A DNA stretch of 64,000 bases from Escherichia coli (GCF_003018255.1 NZ_CP027440.1); one strand, 5' to 3'; positions 6,687 to 43,573 are shown, counted from the first letter of the stretch. Numbers and translations are program-made. The notes: generated by a model from the letters alone, not told the origin.

Positions 6687-8141
6687 TTATTTTTCAATCG
6701 GATAGATAGTACCCGTATTCATAATGCCGTTAGGATCGAACTGCTTTTTCAGCCCTTCCAGCAACGCCCACGCGCTGCCGTGTTCCAGTTTGCTCCAGTG
6801 AACGCGATGTTTACCGATACCGTGGTGGTGCACCATCGAACCACCGAGGCGAATGGTTTCTTCGCAGATGATTTTGTTGAGCGGATTGTGGTACTTGTCG
6901 ATTTCCTCTTCCGGCTTACAGTCAACGACGTTGTAGTCGTAGACGAAGTACATGTTGGTGCCGTTCTGATAGCTATGAGAGGAGTGACCGCCCAGCATGG
7001 TGATGTCGTCGGCATGCGGGAACTCGGTACGAATACGGTTAATAACGCTTTCGTAGATTTCGTGGATGCAGCTCCAGCAGCCGGACACTTCGGTGGTAAA
7101 GCCCATGTTGCCGGTTTTGAGGATCTGCACACGTTCAGCGGCCACTTTATCCGGCCCCCAGTTCAGGTGATTAAACCAGGTTTCGATCAGCTTGCTGTCC
7201 ACTCGCTGGCATTGCGGGTAACGTGCCACGATTTCAGCAATCCCTTCGCCTGTCGCCTTCGCAATGCGAGGGTTACCTTCAGCCATAAAGATCAGCACAC
7301 ATTTACCATCGGCAAAATGGGTGAAGTGTTGGGTGCCATCTTCAGCGTCATACAAACGAGCGATCGACGGACGATACCCTTCCACCATGATTTCACGCAG
7401 GATGTTGAAGCCGGTTTTCATGTCTTCCAGCACATAGCCATAGAAGAGATTGTTTTCCGGCGTAAATTTGAAGATTTTCACTGTGACTTCAGTGATATAG
7501 CACAATGCACCTTCGTTGCCGATGATAATGTGACGAATGTCCGGGCCTGCCGCGCGGCGTGGTACGTTTTTAATACGTGTGACGGTGCCATCAGCCAATA
7601 CTGCTTCCAGACCAACGACCATATCTTCGATTGCGCCGTAGAGTGTGGAGAACTGCCCGATACTGCGGGTTGCTACCAGGCCGCCCATCTGCGCCAGCGG
7701 TTTTGATTGCGGTGAATGCCCCGTGGTGTAACCTTTTTCACGCAACGTGTTTTCCAGCACCTCCAGCGGAACACCACATTGCGCCGTGACCTGCATATTC
7801 TCAATATCAATATTAATGATTTGATTCATGGCAGAGCCGTCGAGCACCACCGAGTTTTCCACAACGGTTTCCAGTCCACCCTCGGTAGCGGAAGCACCGG
7901 TACGCGGCACACCGTTAATTTTGTGTGCATTCATAAAATTCAGTACACGAGAGACTTGTTCTGTGGAACCGAGTTTTACGACCGCTGCCGGAATCGGCAA
8001 AGTATAAATGCCATGAATATCCGGAAATTTGCGAAAACGGTCAATACTGTTTTTCTTTAATACTGTTTCATCGGTAATTACGCGATCTGCACCAACAATT
8101 TCCTTTAGCTGGTCGACAATCGCTGCGCGAGATAAAGACAT
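6687..8141 (-). CDS. ygcU: FAD-linked oxidase (alkyl-DHAP synthase / D-lactate dehydrogenase-like fold)
   Basis: 484-aa ORF; FAD-binding PCMH-type features; K-12 position. Confidence 0.8.
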   Translation of the reverse strand: MSLSRAAIVDQLKEIVGADRVITDETVLKKNSIDRFRKFPDIHGIYTLPIPAAVVKLGSTEQVSRVLNFMNAHKINGVPRTGASATEGGLETVVENSVVLDGSAMNQIINIDIENMQVTAQCGVPLEVLENTLREKGYTTGHSPQSKPLAQMGGLVATRSIGQFSTLYGAIEDMVVGLEAVLADGTVTRIKNVPRRAAGPDIRHIIIGNEGALCYITEVTVKIFKFTPENNLFYGYVLEDMKTGFNILREIMVEGYRPSIARLYDAEDGTQHFTHFADGKCVLIFMAEGNPRIAKATGEGIAEIVARYPQCQRVDSKLIETWFNHLNWGPDKVAAERVQILKTGNMGFTTEVSGCWSCIHEIYESVINRIRTEFPHADDITMLGGHSSHSYQNGTNMYFVYDYNVVDCKPEEEIDKYHNPLNKIICEETIRLGGSMVHHHGIGKHRVHWSKLEHGSAWALLEGLKKQFDPNGIMNTGTIYPIEK

Positions 8142-28771: not shown

Positions 28772-30124
28772 TTATTGCCCCGCGACAGGTTTCAGCTCAA
28801 TACGCTTGATATCGCCCACCAGCACCAGGTAGCTGAGTACCGCGATTAAGGCATGAACACCAACATAAATCAGCGCCCCATTAAAGGAGCCAGTCGTGCC
28901 AACGATATAACCAATTGCGATTGGCGTGACGATGCCAGAAATGTTACCAAACATGTTGAACAGGCCACCGGAAAGACCGCTGATCTCTTTTGGCGCAGTA
29001 TCAGCCATTACAGCCCAACCCAGCGCCCCGATCCCCTTACCGAAGAAGGCCAGCGCCATAAAGCCGATGATCATCCACTCAACGTTGACGTAGTTGCAGA
29101 ACACCATCACCATCGACAACAACATGCCCATCACGATCGGTGTTTTACGCGCAATGTTCAGTGAACCCGTGCGACGCATCAGCCAGTCGGAAATAATCCC
29201 ACCCAGCACACCGCCGATAAAACCGCAAACCGCCGGAACGGAAGCCACAAAGCCCGCTTTCAGAATCGACATCCCGCGCGCCTGCACCAGATAAACCGGG
29301 AACCAGGTAATGAAAAAGTAAGTCAGGGCGTTGATACAGTACTGACCGATATAAACGCCGATCATCATCCGTGACCCGAGCAGCTGTTTGATCTGCCCCC
29401 ACTTCACGCTGAACGGCACTTTAACTTTGGTGTTTTGCTGATCCATATTGATCAGCGCGCCACCCGCGGCGATGTACTCCAGCTCTTTCTGATTTACGCC
29501 CGGATGTTGATTTGGCTCGTGGATGACTTTCAACCAGATAAAGCTGATGACAATGCCCAGACCGCCCATAAAGAAGAAGACGTGTGACCAGCCCACTTCA
29601 TGAGTTAGCCAGCCCATAATCGGCGCGAAGATAACCGTTGCGAAGTATTGGGCGGAGTTAAAAATCGACACCGCCGTTCCCCTTTCCTGCGCCGGAAACC
29701 AGGCCGCAACAATGCGGCTGTTGCCAGGGAAAGATGGCGCTTCAGCAAGCCCGACCAGGAAGCGCAGTGTAAACAGGGCAACGATAATGCCGAATCCACT
29801 AAAGATATCGACGAAGCCTTGCAGCAAGGTAAACATCGACCAGATAAAGATCGACCAGAAGTAGACGCGTTTTGAACCAAAACGATCCAGCAACCAGCCA
29901 CCAGGGATCTGCCCGATAACATACGCCCATGAGAAGGCAGAGAACACATAGCCCATTCCCACGGGATCAAGGCCGATATCTTTGGCCATTTCCGAACCGG
30001 CAATAGAAAGCGTAGCGCGGTCGCCGTAGTTGAAGGATGTGACGATAAACAACATCACCACTATCCAGTAACGAGCATTCGTGCGTTTTTCCACACTGCT
30101 CGCAGCCTGACTTAAAGAACTCAT
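28772..30124 (-). CDS. gudP: Glucarate/galactarate MFS transporter
   Basis: 450 aa MFS; first gene of the gudPXD operon. Confidence 0.92.
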
Positions 30125-30558
30125 TGTTGCACTCCTGAAAATTCGCGTTAGCCACGCTCACTCTGGACTGCGACATCGCCAGGAAATCAGAGGTGACGTA
30201 GGGTGTTTTTTGCCGTTTTTATAGGTCGTTCGCCGAATACGGCGCGTGTTTATATCTGGCAATAGCAGTATAAAAAGCGCGCCATAGCGGCTCACCGTGC
30301 AACAACACAACATTAATGCGTTCAATGAGGCCCGATTTTGGCATTAGCCCTGGACGGTGGAATCCACTTCACGGAAATGAAAACAAGAACAAGAAAGGAA
30401 GGGTTAAAACGAAGAAATAAAGAAGAGTATGAAATGGATCGCTTGACTCCAGGCAAACGCCAGTAAAAATCCGCGCTATGAAGCAGTTTTTACTGGCATT
30501 TGCCTGAAAAGATTCGATTCAGCACCGCTAAAACGGCATTTACCGCTCGCTGAACATA

Positions 30559-31008
30559 TCAGGACAACATCGTGCCCCAATGTTCGACCCACGGATTTGA
30601 TTCCGTTTCCGGTTCCGGGTTCTCACTGGCGTCAATCAACAGCATTTCGCCAACCCGCTGAGCGCTCTGTTCCTGCAACAAGGCATCGAACTGTTTGCCA
30701 CTATTGCAGAAATTCACATAACTACTGTCGCCGAGCGCAATCACGCCATAACGCAGATTCGGCTGGAAGCCCAGGGTATCTTTAATTCCCTGAAAGAGCG
30801 GCACAATGCTATCAGGAAGGTCGCCCTGCCCGGTCGTGGACGTAACCACCAGAACATACTTATCCTGATAGGGCAGCCAGTCGCTTAATTCAGGATCTTC
30901 AAATACCGTTGCTTTGTGGCCCTGCGCGGTCAGAATTGCTTCCGCTTCTTCCGCCACTAACAGCGAATTTCCGTACATAGTGCCGACAAAAATACCAATT
31001 TCCGCCAT
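30559..31008 (-). CDS. yqcA: Flavodoxin-like protein
   Basis: 149 aa, [23 protein letters not shown]; flavodoxin fold. Confidence 0.88.
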
Positions 31009-32137: not shown

Positions 32138-32182
32138 AAAGCAACCTCAATAAGAAAAACTGCCGCGAAGGATAGCAGGAAT

Positions 32183-32548
32183 AAAAAAAGGGAGCACTGT
32201 ATTCACAGTGCTCCCGGTTCGTTTCGCAGCATTCCGGCTACTTTTGTTGCTCCCTGCTCATCCTTGACAACTTTTCCTCTGGCCTTGCGGCCAATCGTTC
32301 ATCCTGAACTATTGCTTCCTGCTCACACCACCCCGATGTGATACTTCATCCTGAAGTGTTCCTGGCCTTCCTGACCCACCGAATCATCCTGACCGGTTCT
32401 CATTCTCCATCCTGGAGGTGTCCTTTAACGCGTCCTGCGTCATCCTCTTCGCTTCATCCAGAAGCCTTTCCCTGAAACACCATCCTGGTGTGTCCTTCAG
32501 AAGTGTCATCATCCTGATGTTCACTTCGTTGTCTGACTCCCTGTCGAC
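32183..32548 (-). ncRNA. csrB: CsrB small RNA (CsrA-sequestering)
   Basis: Minus strand begins GTCGACAGGGAGTCAGACAACGAAGTGAACATCAGGATGATG; about 18 CAGGA(U/A)G-type GGA motifs; 3' hairpin gggagcactgtgaatacagtgctccc followed by a T-run. Confidence 0.93.
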
Positions 32549-42256: not shown

Positions 42257-43573
42257 ATGGGAAACACATCAATACAAACGCAGAGTTACCGTGCGGTAGA
42301 TAAAGATGCAGGGCAAAGCAGAAGTTACATTATTCCATTCGCGCTGCTGTGCTCACTGTTTTTTCTTTGGGCGGTAGCCAATAACCTTAACGACATTTTA
42401 TTACCTCAATTCCAGCAGGCTTTTACGCTGACAAATTTCCAGGCTGGCCTGATCCAATCGGCCTTTTACTTTGGTTATTTCATTATCCCAATCCCTGCTG
42501 GGATATTGATGAAAAAACTCAGTTATAAAGCAGGGATTATTACCGGATTATTTTTATATGCCTTGGGCGCTGCATTATTCTGGCCCGCTGCAGAAATAAT
42601 GAACTACACCTTATTTTTAGTTGGCCTATTTATTATTGCAGCTGGATTAGGTTGTCTGGAAACTGCCGCAAACCCTTTTGTTACGGTATTAGGGCCGGAA
42701 AGCAGTGGTCACTTCCGCTTAAATCTTGCGCAAACATTTAACTCGTTTGGCGCAATTATCGCGGTTGTCTTTGGACAAAGTCTTATTTTGTCTAACGTGC
42801 CACATCAATCGCAAGACGTTCTCGATAAAATGTCTCCAGAGCAATTGAGTGCGTATAAACACAGCCTGGTATTATCGGTACAGACACCTTATATGATCAT
42901 CGTGGCTATCGTGTTACTGGTCGCCCTGCTGATCATGCTGACGAAATTCCCGGCATTGCAGAGTGATAATCACAGTGACGCCAAACAAGGATCGTTCTCC
43001 GCATCGCTTTCTCGTCTGGCGCGTATTCGTCACTGGCGCTGGGCGGTATTAGCGCAATTCTGCTATGTCGGCGCGCAAACGGCCTGCTGGAGCTATTTGA
43101 TTCGCTACGCTGTAGAAGAAATTCCAGGTATGACCGCAGGCTTTGCCGCTAACTATTTAACCGGAACCATGGTGTGCTTCTTTATTGGTCGTTTCACCGG
43201 TACCTGGCTCATCAGTCGCTTCGCACCACACAAAGTCCTGGCAGCCTACGCATTAATCGCTATGGCACTGTGCCTGATCTCAGCCTTCGCTGGCGGTCAT
43301 GTGGGCTTAATAGCCCTGACTTTATGCAGCGCCTTTATGTCGATTCAGTACCCAACAATCTTCTCGCTGGGCATTAAGAATCTCGGCCAGGACACCAAAT
43401 ACGGTTCGTCCTTCATCGTTATGACCATCATTGGCGGCGGTATTGTCACTCCGGTCATGGGTTTTGTCAGTGACGCGGCGGGCAACATCCCCACTGCTGA
43501 ACTGATCCCCGCACTCTGCTTCGCGGTCATCTTTATCTTTGCCCGTTTCCGTTCTCAAACAGCAACTAACTGA
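42257..43573 (+). CDS. fucP: L-fucose:H+ symporter
   Basis: 438 aa MFS. Confidence 0.95.
   Translation: MGNTSIQTQSYRAVDKDAGQSRSYIIPFALLCSLFFLWAVANNLNDILLPQFQQAFTLTNFQAGLIQSAFYFGYFIIPIPAGILMKKLSYKAGIITGLFLYALGAALFWPAAEIMNYTLFLVGLFIIAAGLGCLETAANPFVTVLGPESSGHFRLNLAQTFNSFGAIIAVVFGQSLILSNVPHQSQDVLDKMSPEQLSAYKHSLVLSVQTPYMIIVAIVLLVALLIMLTKFPALQSDNHSDAKQGSFSASLSRLARIRHWRWAVLAQFCYVGAQTACWSYLIRYAVEEIPGMTAGFAANYLTGTMVCFFIGRFTGTWLISRFAPHKVLAAYALIAMALCLISAFAGGHVGLIALTLCSAFMSIQYPTIFSLGIKNLGQDTKYGSSFIVMTIIGGGIVTPVMGFVSDAAGNIPTAELIPALCFAVIFIFARFRSQTATN

What the first reader, a model, noticed from the sequence alone, without database searches (positions are those of the whole stretch)
30451..30508. Long imperfect inverted repeat in the gudP-yqcA intergenic region
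caggcaaacgccagtaaaaa-[17 nt]-tttttactggcatttgcctg forms a stem of about 20 bp with one bulge. It lies downstream of yqcA and upstream of gudP (both on the minus strand). It is not followed by a clean T-run, so it may be a protein-binding operator or RNA processing element for the gudPXD promoter rather than a simple terminator.
Basis: seen in the sequence. Interest (0 to 1): 0.3.

Follow-up and report, generated by a model that had tools for sequence, protein, structure and literature searches.

The report
Palindromic regulator-box pair upstream of gudP
The inverted repeat between yqcA and gudP in E. coli is real, and it looks like two inverted copies of a DNA box shared by the promoters of the glucarate/galactarate (CdaR) regulon, so it is most likely an upstream protein-binding site for gudPXD rather than a simple terminator.

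Summary
The repeat is real. Its arms are 30450-30469 and 30487-30506, 19 of 20 positions are complementary, and the loop is 17 nt. The flaw is a mismatch (G.U in minus-strand RNA), not a bulge. The element is single-copy and present in 5425 of 5426 complete E. coli genomes.

The arms match a box conserved in the gudP core promoter of about 70 Enterobacteriaceae loci. The same box occurs in the garP and cdaR promoters. A copy sits 154-156 bp upstream of the core box in about 10 genera, or 146 bp in Salmonella (one helical turn less). Its distance from the yqcA stop varies from 32 to 121 nt. garP-garD carries an analogous repeat, TGTGCAAATGCT-N32-AGCATATGCACA, with nearly the same arm spacing (44 vs 45 bp).

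RNA-level evidence is weak: one covarying pair, no U-tail and no Rfam match. Published bicyclomycin data place Rho-dependent termination downstream.

Best reading: an auxiliary upstream operator pair, probably for CdaR. The RNA hairpin is a by-product, or at most a 3'-end barrier. Protein binding is inferred, not shown. Interest is modest.

The parts
30487..30506 (-). Right arm on the + strand, which is the 5' arm in the yqcA/gudP sense (CAGGCAAATGCCAGTAAAAA). This is upstream box U1, centred about 240 bp before the inferred gudP start.
   Evidence: The PWM hit at 30489-30508 (-) scores 10.7 bits; only 3 hits reach 10 bits in the 64-kb window. An orthologous box sits at -154 to -156 from the core box in about 10 genera.
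30470..30486 (-). 17-nt spacer/loop (CTGCTTCATAGCGCGGA in the gudP sense), with a weak 4-bp inner stem. It is variable within Escherichia. In Citrobacter and Superficieibacter the same position holds a GC stem plus T-run that looks like a terminator.
   Evidence: An E. coli SNP falls here.
30450..30469 (-). Left arm on the + strand, which is the 3' arm in the gudP sense (TTTTTACTGGCGTTTGCCTG). This is the inverted box U2, centred about 197 bp before the inferred gudP start.
   Evidence: The PWM hit at 30448-30467 (+) scores 7.4 bits. An inverted distal-type copy scoring at least 5 bits occurs only in Escherichia. Other genera have GGCATTTTCAC here, whose reverse complement GTGAAAATGCC resembles the gar box GTGCAAATGCT.
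30439..30447 (-). GTCAAGCGA motif just downstream of the palindrome. It is nearly invariant across genera and phase-locked to the gudP core.
   Evidence: Columns are invariant in alignment A1. The motif lies 93-95 bp upstream of the core box in about 36 loci and 83 bp in 2 loci. On the + strand it reads TTGACT, a -35-like hexamer.
30425..30434 (-). TTTCATACTC (TTTCACACTC in other genera). It is a conserved element of unknown role. It could be -10-like (CATACT) or, together with AAGCGA, the right half of a CRP-like site.
   Evidence: Both interpretations are inference only.
30377..30438 (-). 62-nt spacer, 84% pyrimidine in the gudP sense (C16, G3, T36). Its length is constant (62-63 nt, or 52) across genera while its sequence diverges. 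It is rut-like as RNA.
30334..30353 (-). Core distal box of the gudP promoter (CCAGGGCTAATGCCAAAATC), about 85 bp before the inferred start. It is present in all 70 loci examined.
   Evidence: 13.9 bits. It is in exact register with the garP distal box; both lie 78 nt upstream of TATACT.
30297..30308 (-). Core proximal box (GTGTTGTTGCAC), about 42 bp before the inferred start. The TTGCAC-N24-TATACT geometry is shared with garP, and with cdaR as TTGCAC-N24-TATGCT.
30267..30272 (-). Inferred gudP -10 hexamer TATACT. It is conserved in nearly all of the loci (69 of 70).
   Evidence: The transcription start itself was not available to me.
30142..30142 (-). Published Rho termination region coordinate (MG1655 2922118, minus strand), 18 nt upstream of the gudP start codon.
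   Evidence: Adams et al. 2021, PMC7815308, supplementary file 2, read.

Best explanation
The palindrome is primarily a DNA element. It consists of two inverted copies of the box that marks promoters of the sugar-diacid (CdaR) regulon. The copies lie 43-45 bp apart centre to centre, about 240 and 197 bp upstream of the inferred gudP start.

Together with the core boxes near -85 and -42 they form a four-box array. The regulator, most likely CdaR, would occupy the upstream pair in the same geometry as the garP-garD inverted repeat. It would then communicate with the core pair, probably by DNA looping across a phase-locked 155-bp interval. That would tune activation or basal repression of gudPXD.

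What is shown: the box similarity, the fixed and helically phased position relative to the gudP core, and the lack of any fixed position relative to yqcA.

What is inferred: the identity of the protein, its binding, looping, and the direction of the effect.

Because the pair is inverted and each box carries an inner A-tract, any yqcA read-through transcript necessarily folds into a -40 kcal/mol stem-loop. I regard that stem-loop as a by-product. At most it acts as a barrier to 3' exonucleases after Rho-dependent termination further downstream.
For: 1. A 20-nt PWM was trained only on non-Escherichia core distal boxes. In the E. coli intergenic region it ranks the core box first (13.9 bits), then the two hairpin arms (10.7 and 7.4 bits). 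The whole 64-kb window has only 3 hits of at least 10 bits and 8 of at least 7.4 bits.

2. The same PWM finds the garP distal box (10.3 bits) and a box 60 nt upstream of cdaR (10.3 bits). The gudP, garP and cdaR promoters share TTGCAC-N24-TAT(A/G)CT. The gudP and garP distal boxes are both 78 nt upstream of the -10.

3. garP-garD holds TGTGCAAATGCT-N32-AGCATATGCACA, 44 bp centre to centre. The hairpin is CAGGCAAATGCC-N33-GGCGTTTGCCTG, 45 bp.

4. The 8-mer GCAWWTGC occurs 4 times in the 962 bp of the three regulon intergenic regions. It occurs 7 times in the 64-kb window.

5. The upstream box lies 154-156 bp from the core box in about 24 loci of about 10 genera, and 146 bp in Salmonella. GTCAAGCGA lies at -93 to -95, or at -83. 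Length changes therefore come in steps of about 10 bp. The distance to the yqcA stop varies from 32 to 121 nt.

6. Kosakonia and Phytobacter keep the box (13-16 bits) although the stem and T-run are lost.

7. Base identity (GGC...GCC) is conserved while the lower stem pairs only in Escherichia. That pattern is the reverse of what an RNA helix shows.

8. The arms are invariant in the E. coli variants I sampled.
Against: - No binding data for CdaR, or for any other protein, at this site were available to me. The CdaR recognition sequence is not described in the literature I could search, and Monterrubio et al. 2000 was not held.
- About 40 of the 70 loci (Enterobacter, the C. freundii group, Buttiauxella and others) lack the whole upstream module yet keep the core. 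The module is therefore dispensable.
- One stem pair covaries: A-U, C-G and U-A at the n position of GCCnGT / ACnGGC. Independent protein sites do not predict this.
- In Citrobacter and Superficieibacter the spacer forms a canonical stem plus T-run. That suggests a terminator role at least in those genera.
- The 8-mer and PWM statistics rest on small regions and on my own choice of motif.
- The gudP transcription start is inferred, not measured.
Confidence: 0.5

Rival explanations
1. RNA-level element of the yqcC-truC-yqcA operon. The stem-loop forms in the minus-strand transcript 52 nt after the yqcA stop. It marks and protects the mRNA 3' end. It would act either as a weak intrinsic terminator or, more likely, as the stable hairpin to which exonucleases trim transcripts that Rho has terminated downstream. 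Either way it insulates gudP from upstream transcription.
For: - Minus-strand RNA folds at -40.3 kcal/mol with z -8.4, better than the plus strand.
- The single mismatch is G.U in the yqcA sense. Within Escherichia there are 10 G.U cells against 2 A.C cells.
- One pair shows three Watson-Crick types. The named structure is 68.9% paired, against 32-46% when the partners are slid.
- The hairpin is followed by a 62-nt tract with C16 and G3, which is rut-like.
- Adams et al. 2021 list a Rho termination region on this strand at MG1655 2922118. Read counts upstream/downstream were 114/23 untreated and 112/90 with bicyclomycin; Rho score 3.98, p 9e-8.
- Orthologues in Citrobacter and Superficieibacter have a GC stem plus U-run.
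Against: - No U-tract follows the full stem. The inner stem before the internal U5 has only 4 bp, and the simple terminator scan finds nothing on the minus strand.
- With Rho inhibited, downstream read density is about 80% of upstream. The hairpin is therefore not an efficient Rho-independent terminator.
- No curated Term-seq 3' end for yqcA or gudP appears in the uncut tables of Adams et al..
- The element's position is fixed relative to gudP, not relative to yqcA.
- Citrobacter and Salmonella already have a separate GC hairpin right after yqcA.
- The RNAalifold covariation term is 0.
- The G.U excess reduces to about 4-5 events against 2 once shared ancestry is considered.
- No Rfam family matches.
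Confidence: 0.25
2. Relic without a present function. The upstream module is a decayed tandem duplicate of the CdaR-dependent promoter region. In the Escherichia lineage, template-switch (quasipalindrome-correcting) mutation made the two halves almost perfectly complementary. The perfect palindrome is a product of that mutation process, not of selection.
For: - The module mirrors the core. The distal-type box and the second box sit at the same +44 offset, followed by a -10-like CATACT that is 4 bp out of register (20 vs 24 nt) (direct reading of the sequence).
- The Escherichia 3' arm differs from the Citrobacter/Salmonella state (TTTTCATAGG to TTTGCCTGGA) by a cluster of 4 substitutions. Three of them create complementarity to the 5' arm.
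- The module has been lost in many genera.
Against: - The box and GTCAAGCGA stay conserved, with phase-preserving spacing, across about 10 genera, while the sequence between them has diverged almost completely.
- The arms are invariant across sampled E. coli while the loop and flanks vary.
- Local alignment of module against core is only marginal: z 2.6 in E. coli and not significant in the other genera.
Confidence: 0.15
3. Promoter or processing element. Two versions are possible. In the first, the conserved TTGAC (the reverse complement of GTCAAGCGA) plus the A-rich arm forms a + strand promoter driving an RNA antisense to yqcA. In the second, the duplex of more than 20 bp is an RNase III site that controls yqcA or read-through RNA.
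For: - The promoter scan finds TTGACT-16-AAAAAT at 30443-30470 (+).
- TTGAC is nearly invariant across genera.
- The RNA stem has 20 bp plus 4 bp, long enough for RNase III.
Against: - The scan result is at chance level: 1 site found against 0.7 expected.
- The -10-like hexamer is poor and not conserved in sequence.
- No antisense 3' end or transcript is listed here in the tables I could read.
Confidence: 0.07

Closest known systems
The garP-garD divergent control region of E. coli (CdaR/SdaR regulon; Monterrubio et al. 2000, cited from memory and from the reference list seen)
   Same: It has an inverted repeat with the same core 8-mer (GCAAATGC / GCATATGC), inner A/T-rich flanks, and a 44-bp centre-to-centre spacing against 45 bp here. 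Its two arms are the distal and proximal boxes of the garP promoter, which is in register with the gudP core promoter.
   Different: In gar the pair directly abuts the -10 (at about -42 and -85). The yqcA-gudP palindrome lies about 155 bp further upstream and is a second, auxiliary pair. Its arms are far more complementary (19 of 20 over 20 nt) than the gar arms (11 of 12 over 12 nt).
Auxiliary upstream operators that act by DNA looping (araO2-araI1 with AraC, lac O3, gal OE/OI, deo operators)
   Same: An extra copy of the regulator's site lies one to two hundred bp from the promoter-proximal sites. The spacing is conserved in helical phase: 155 bp, or 146 bp in Salmonella. The spacer changes length in steps of about 10 bp.
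   Different: Looping, and even binding, are not demonstrated here. The regulator family (PucR/CdaR type) has no described looping mechanism that I know of.
Intrinsic (Rho-independent) terminators with A-tract/U-tract extension, including bidirectional terminators
   Same: It lies just downstream of a stop codon. An A5 run and a U5 run flank a central hairpin. The orthologous elements in Citrobacter and Superficieibacter look like true terminators.
   Different: In E. coli the central stem has only 4 bp with an 8-nt loop. The U-run is buried inside a 20-bp stem, and no U-tail follows the stem. Published data point to Rho dependence.
Stable stem-loops that define the processed 3' ends of Rho-terminated transcripts (Dar and Sorek 2018, as summarised in the text of Adams et al. 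2021 read)
   Same: It is a strong hairpin without a U-tail, followed by a C-rich, G-poor tract, with a mapped Rho termination region downstream.
   Different: No 3' end at the hairpin is recorded in the tables I could read. Conservation follows gudP rather than yqcA.

Membership tests
Intrinsic (Rho-independent) terminator | G+C-rich stem of about 5-14 bp with a short loop | tested here: not met
   The stem directly before the internal U-run is 4 bp (CUGC/GCGG) with an 8-nt loop and a bulged A. The long 20-bp stem is A/U-rich at its top. The scan for stems of at least 5 pairs with loops of 3-8 nt finds nothing on the minus strand.
Intrinsic (Rho-independent) terminator | U-rich tract immediately 3' of the stem | tested here: not met
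   GAGUCAAGCGAUCC follows the full stem. The only U5 run forms part of the 3' arm.
Intrinsic (Rho-independent) terminator | Termination in vivo that does not depend on Rho | tested here: inconclusive
   Published DirectRNA-seq with and without bicyclomycin gives a downstream/upstream read ratio of 0.20 untreated and 0.80 treated around MG1655 2922118. This argues against efficient intrinsic termination. However, the windows are 800 nt, counts are low, and transcripts from the gudP promoter itself cannot be separated out.
Operator / upstream activating site of the CdaR (sugar diacid) regulon | Sequence match to the box shared by the known CdaR-dependent promoters (gudP, garP/garD, cdaR) | tested here: met
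   PWM scores are 10.7 and 7.4 bits for the arms, 13.9 for the gudP core, 10.3 for garP and 10.3 for cdaR. Only 3 hits reach 10 bits in 64 kb. The 8-mer is enriched in the regulon regions.
Operator / upstream activating site of the CdaR (sugar diacid) regulon | Fixed, phase-conserved position relative to the regulated promoter across species | tested here: met
   The upstream box lies at -154 to -156 in about 24 loci and at -146 in Salmonella. The distance to yqcA is variable.
Operator / upstream activating site of the CdaR (sugar diacid) regulon | Physical binding by CdaR and an effect on gudPXD transcription | not testable with these tools
   No footprint, SELEX or ChIP data for CdaR were found. 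The widely used glucarate biosensor promoter fragment contains the whole intergenic region, palindrome included. It therefore does not separate the module from the core.
Dispersed repeat elements (REP/BIME, ERIC/IRU, MITEs) | Many copies per genome | tested here: not met
   There is a median of one place per E. coli genome for both the 97-bp and the 434-bp queries. No other copy occurs in the window.
Curated RNA families (Rfam 15) | Match to a covariance model | tested here: not met
   Only CsrB is found nearby, at E up to 1, in E. coli and in five other genera.
RNase III substrate | About 20 bp or more of near-perfect dsRNA, and cleavage in vivo | tested here: inconclusive
   The structural criterion is met, with 20 bp plus 4 bp.

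The most novel reading that the evidence does not exclude
The palindrome and the conserved module around it (GTCAAGCGA, TTTCAYACTC and a fixed-length spacer) would be the upstream half of a four-box, helically phased looping architecture. That architecture would define the so far undescribed CdaR recognition box (about KGGC-N4-GCC-N1-2-AAA, and GCATTTGCAC at -42). The element would be dual-use. As DNA it would be an operator pair. As RNA it would be the stem-loop that caps yqcA transcripts ahead of a Rho-dependent insulator. A single template-switch event in Escherichia would have sharpened both roles.
Probability: 0.3. Interest if true: 0.5.

Novelty: new member of a known kind. Interest (0 to 1): 0.35.

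Why it matters
CdaR is the sole specific regulator of glucarate/galactarate catabolism. That pathway matters for post-antibiotic and inflammation-associated growth of E. coli and Salmonella in the gut. The CdaR-PgudP pair is also a widely used glucarate biosensor, and its promoter fragment includes this palindrome.

If correct, this analysis gives three things:
- a concrete candidate CdaR box;
- a shared promoter geometry, TTGCAC-N24-TATACT, with a distal box 78 nt upstream of the -10;
- an auxiliary upstream box pair that could be deleted or re-phased to tune the biosensor.

It is useful but incremental. It adds one operator arrangement to a known class and does not challenge any principle.

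Tried and rejected
- **Dispersed repeat or mobile element.** Rejected because the element is single-copy in E. coli.
- **Known RNA family.** No Rfam match in E. coli or in five other genera.
- **Canonical terminator.** The simple scan found none on the minus strand.
- **Naive 12-mer comparison of the gud and gar intergenic regions.** This gave only chance-level numbers of hits. The shared architecture emerged only after register and box analysis.
- **Tandem duplication of the core promoter as the origin of the module.** Local alignments are marginal: 7 of 300 shuffles reach the score in E. coli, and the result is not significant in five other genera. I kept this only as a rival.
- **CRP site at AAGCGA-N6-TCATAC.** The position (about -175) fits no standard class of CRP site. 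No CRP site is listed here in the main text of the Footprint-seq preprint, and its supplement was not held. I left this as a passing note.
- **Published transcript ends.** Adams 2021 has no yqcA or gudP 3' end. The TERMITe and SMRT-Cappable-seq supplements held nothing. The supplements of Dar and Sorek 2018, the 3'-UTR valves paper, Conway 2014 and Altuvia 2018 were not held.
- **Papers not held.** Monterrubio 2000 and Thomason 2015.
- **Full-text search for the box sequence.** It found no relevant paper.

Full report
**Context**

The window is E. coli chromosome. On the minus strand lie gudP (28772-30124), yqcA (30559-31008), truC, yqcC and csrB. Window coordinates equal MG1655 (NC_000913.3) coordinates minus 2891976. 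The palindrome therefore lies at 2922426-2922482.

**Observation**

- The arms are 30450-30469 and 30487-30506, with a 17-nt spacer.
- Nineteen of 20 positions pair. The exception is a mismatch, C.A on the + strand and G.U in minus-strand RNA. It is not a bulge.
- Chance expectation for a second copy of an arm in the window is 0.03.
- RNA folding gives -40.3 kcal/mol (z -8.4) for the minus strand and -32.5 (z -5.8) for the plus strand. As DNA the values are -22.2 and -19.6 kcal/mol.
- The element is single-copy and present in 5425 of 5426 complete E. coli genomes.
- In MG1655 and four variant strains, all differences lie in the loop or outside the arms.

**Comparative anatomy**

I fetched 80 yqcA loci, one per species, from Enterobacteriaceae. 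The yqcA-gudP gene order is widespread, and 70 intergenic regions could be delimited.

All 70 share a core gudP control region:
- TTCCGTGAA-N7-TTCCAC;
- a distal box, consensus CTTGGGCTTATGCCATAAAC, with conserved GGGC and GCC around a variable 4-nt centre;
- AATGTTGTGTT-N-TGCACGGTGAG;
- TATACT.

About 38 loci also carry GTCAAGCGA plus TTTCACACTC upstream of the core. About 26 of those further carry the region orthologous to the palindrome. Enterobacter, the C. freundii group, Buttiauxella, Trabulsiella and others lack the upstream module.

**The arms are copies of the promoter box**

- A PWM was built only from non-Escherichia core distal boxes. In the E. coli intergenic region it ranks the core box first (13.9 bits), the right arm second (10.7) and the left arm on the opposite strand third (7.4). 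The whole 64-kb window contains only three hits of at least 10 bits.
- The same PWM picks out the distal box of the garP promoter (10.3 bits). It also picks out a box 60 nt upstream of cdaR (ATTGTGCAAATGCCTAAAGG, 10.3 bits).
- gudP, garP and cdaR share TTGCAC-N24-TAT(A/G)CT. The gudP and garP distal boxes are both exactly 78 nt upstream of the -10.
- The garP-garD region contains TGTGCAAATGCT-N32-AGCATATGCACA, 44 bp centre to centre. The palindrome here is CAGGCAAATGCC-N33-GGCGTTTGCCTG, 45 bp.
- GCAWWTGC occurs four times in the 962 bp of the three regulon intergenic regions. It occurs seven times in the 64-kb window.

**Position follows gudP, not yqcA**

- In every genus that has the module, a same-orientation copy of the box lies 154-156 bp upstream of the core box. 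PWM scores run from 7.5 to 17.2 bits.
- In Salmonella the distance is 146 bp, because the spacer between the arms is 10 nt shorter.
- GTCAAGCGA lies 93-95 bp upstream of the core box, or 83 bp in two loci.
- The spacer between GTCAAGCGA and TTCCGTGAA is 62-63 nt (52 in those two loci), although its sequence has diverged almost completely.
- Length changes in steps of about 10 bp are what helical phasing of protein sites predicts.
- By contrast, the distance from the yqcA stop to the box varies from 32 to 121 nt. Citrobacter and Salmonella also have a separate GC hairpin directly after yqcA.

**RNA-level evidence is weak**

- On a 25-sequence alignment the 20-pair structure is 68.9% paired, against 32-46% for slid partners. 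One pair shows A-U, C-G and U-A.
- The lowest eight pairs exist only in Escherichia.
- Base identity in the arms is conserved more strongly than complementarity.
- Kosakonia and Phytobacter keep the box but lose both the stem and the T-run.
- RNAalifold gives a covariation term of 0.
- The G.U excess in the yqcA sense (10 vs 2 cells in Escherichia) reduces to a handful of events.
- No U-tail follows the stem, and the inner stem ahead of the internal U5 has 4 bp.
- No Rfam family matches.

**Published transcript data**

The supplementary tables of Adams et al. 2021 (PMC7815308) were stored uncut. They list no Term-seq 3' end for yqcA or gudP.

They do list a Rho termination region at 2922118 on the minus strand, which is window 30142, 18 nt upstream of the gudP ATG. 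Read counts upstream/downstream were 114/23 untreated and 112/90 with bicyclomycin, giving a Rho score of 3.98 and p 9e-8.

Insulation of gudP from upstream transcription in LB is therefore largely Rho-dependent. The palindrome is not an efficient intrinsic terminator. The 84%-pyrimidine tract right after it (C16, G3 in 62 nt) is a plausible Rho loading site. The hairpin could then serve as an exonuclease barrier, but no mapped end supports this.

**Interpretation**

The best-supported reading is a DNA element: an auxiliary, inverted pair of regulon boxes upstream of gudPXD, probably bound by CdaR. It has the same geometry as the gar operator and is phase-locked to the core boxes, most simply for looping. 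The RNA hairpin follows automatically from the inverted arrangement and the inner A/T tracts of the boxes.

In Citrobacter-like genera a GC stem between the tracts makes a genuine-looking terminator. In E. coli that stem has decayed.

The near-perfect 20-bp complementarity is specific to Escherichia. It arises from a cluster of four substitutions in the 3' arm, three of which create pairing. That is the signature of a template-switch event at a quasipalindrome, which is my inference.

Three things remain inferred: binding, the identity of the protein, and the sign of the effect. The module is absent from many genera, so it is accessory.

**Literature**

I found no description of the CdaR recognition sequence in the searchable library. 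The original regulon paper was not held. The promoter fragment of the standard glucarate biosensor spans the whole intergenic region including the palindrome. It shows that the region works as a glucarate-inducible promoter, but it does not dissect the parts.

**Verdict**

The finding is real, conserved and better explained as an operator pair than as a terminator. It is a new instance of a familiar kind of element and of modest general interest.

Noticed in passing
window 30425-30447 (-): GTCAAGCGA(T/C)C followed by TTTCA(T/C)ACTC is nearly invariant across genera. It occurs even in species that lack the palindrome, and it sits 93-95 bp (or 83 bp) upstream of the core box. It can be read as a CRP-like site (AAGCGA-N6-TCACAC), as a -10-like CATACT, or on the + strand as a -35-like TTGACT. 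None of these readings is established.
   Followed up: partly
window 30377-30438 (-) and window 30142: There is a 62-nt tract that is 84% pyrimidine (C16, G3) right after the palindrome. A published Rho termination region lies at MG1655 2922118, just before the gudP start codon. This suggests Rho-dependent insulation or attenuation in the gudP leader.
   Followed up: partly
window 30267-30353; L083:7036-7091 and 7170-7180; L084:1894-1945: The gudP, garP and cdaR promoters share one architecture: a box ending in TTGCAC, 24 nt, then TAT(A/G)CT. In gudP and garP a distal box also lies 78 nt upstream of the -10. This looks like the signature of a CdaR-dependent promoter. I could not find it described in the literature I searched.
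   Followed up: partly
L007, L009, L020, L021, L061, L064 (region orthologous to window 30470-30486): In Citrobacter and Superficieibacter the spacer between the two boxes is a canonical A-tract, GC stem (CCTTTC/GAAAGG) and T-run, which looks like a bidirectional terminator. In Escherichia that stem has decayed to 4 bp. In Kosakonia and Phytobacter the T-run is replaced by an A-run.
   Followed up: partly
alignment A1 columns 80-87 (window 30450-30457): Escherichia differs from all other genera by a cluster of four substitutions in the 3' arm (TTTTCATAGG to TTTGCCTGGA). Three of them create pairing with the 5' arm. This is suggestive of a single template-switch event at a quasipalindrome.
   Followed up: no
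window 30450-30478 vs 30256-30284: The loop plus left arm (ATAGCGCGGATTTTTACTGGCGTTTGCC in the gudP sense) aligns with the gudP -10 region (ATGGCGCGCTTTTTATACTGCTATTGCC); 7 of 300 shuffles score as well. The leader just after the -10 also carries GCCAGT-A-rich in many genera, like the arm. This may be a trace of an old duplication.
   Followed up: partly
L089 (E. coli 2014C-4135), breakpoint at about window 30441: An IS66-family element (ISEc23) is inserted immediately next to the palindrome on the gudP side, at the GTCAAGCGA motif. A second strain (H30, NZ_CP095856.1) also matches only the yqcA-proximal 157 bp of the intergenic region.
   Followed up: partly
window 42366-42385 (+): The second-best match to the box PWM in the whole window (TTTGGGCGGTAGCCAATAAC, 12.2 bits) lies far from the gud locus. 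I did not examine its context.
   Followed up: no
L048, L049, L052 (Atlantibacter), spacer between GTCAAGCGA and the core: The spacer contains ATTTGAAACAACGTTTCATG, a near-perfect palindrome. It resembles a KdgR-type operator as I recall that motif, and it is absent from E. coli.
   Followed up: no
window 30231-30244 (+): CGCCGAATACGGCG followed by a T-rich tail on the + strand is the only terminator-like hit in the intergenic region. It lies inside the inferred gudP leader, antisense to it. In the leader RNA the same bases form a small GC hairpin.
   Followed up: no
window 32180-32539 (-): The full-length CsrB sRNA gene is here (Rfam RF00018, 381.7 bits), as expected upstream of yqcC.
   Followed up: yes
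L010, L011, L017, L027 (C. freundii group, Enterobacter): In several short-form species a REP-like palindrome (GCCGGGTCAGGCGANGCNGCCACCCGGC) occupies the place between yqcA and the gudP core where the box module lies in E. coli.
   Followed up: no
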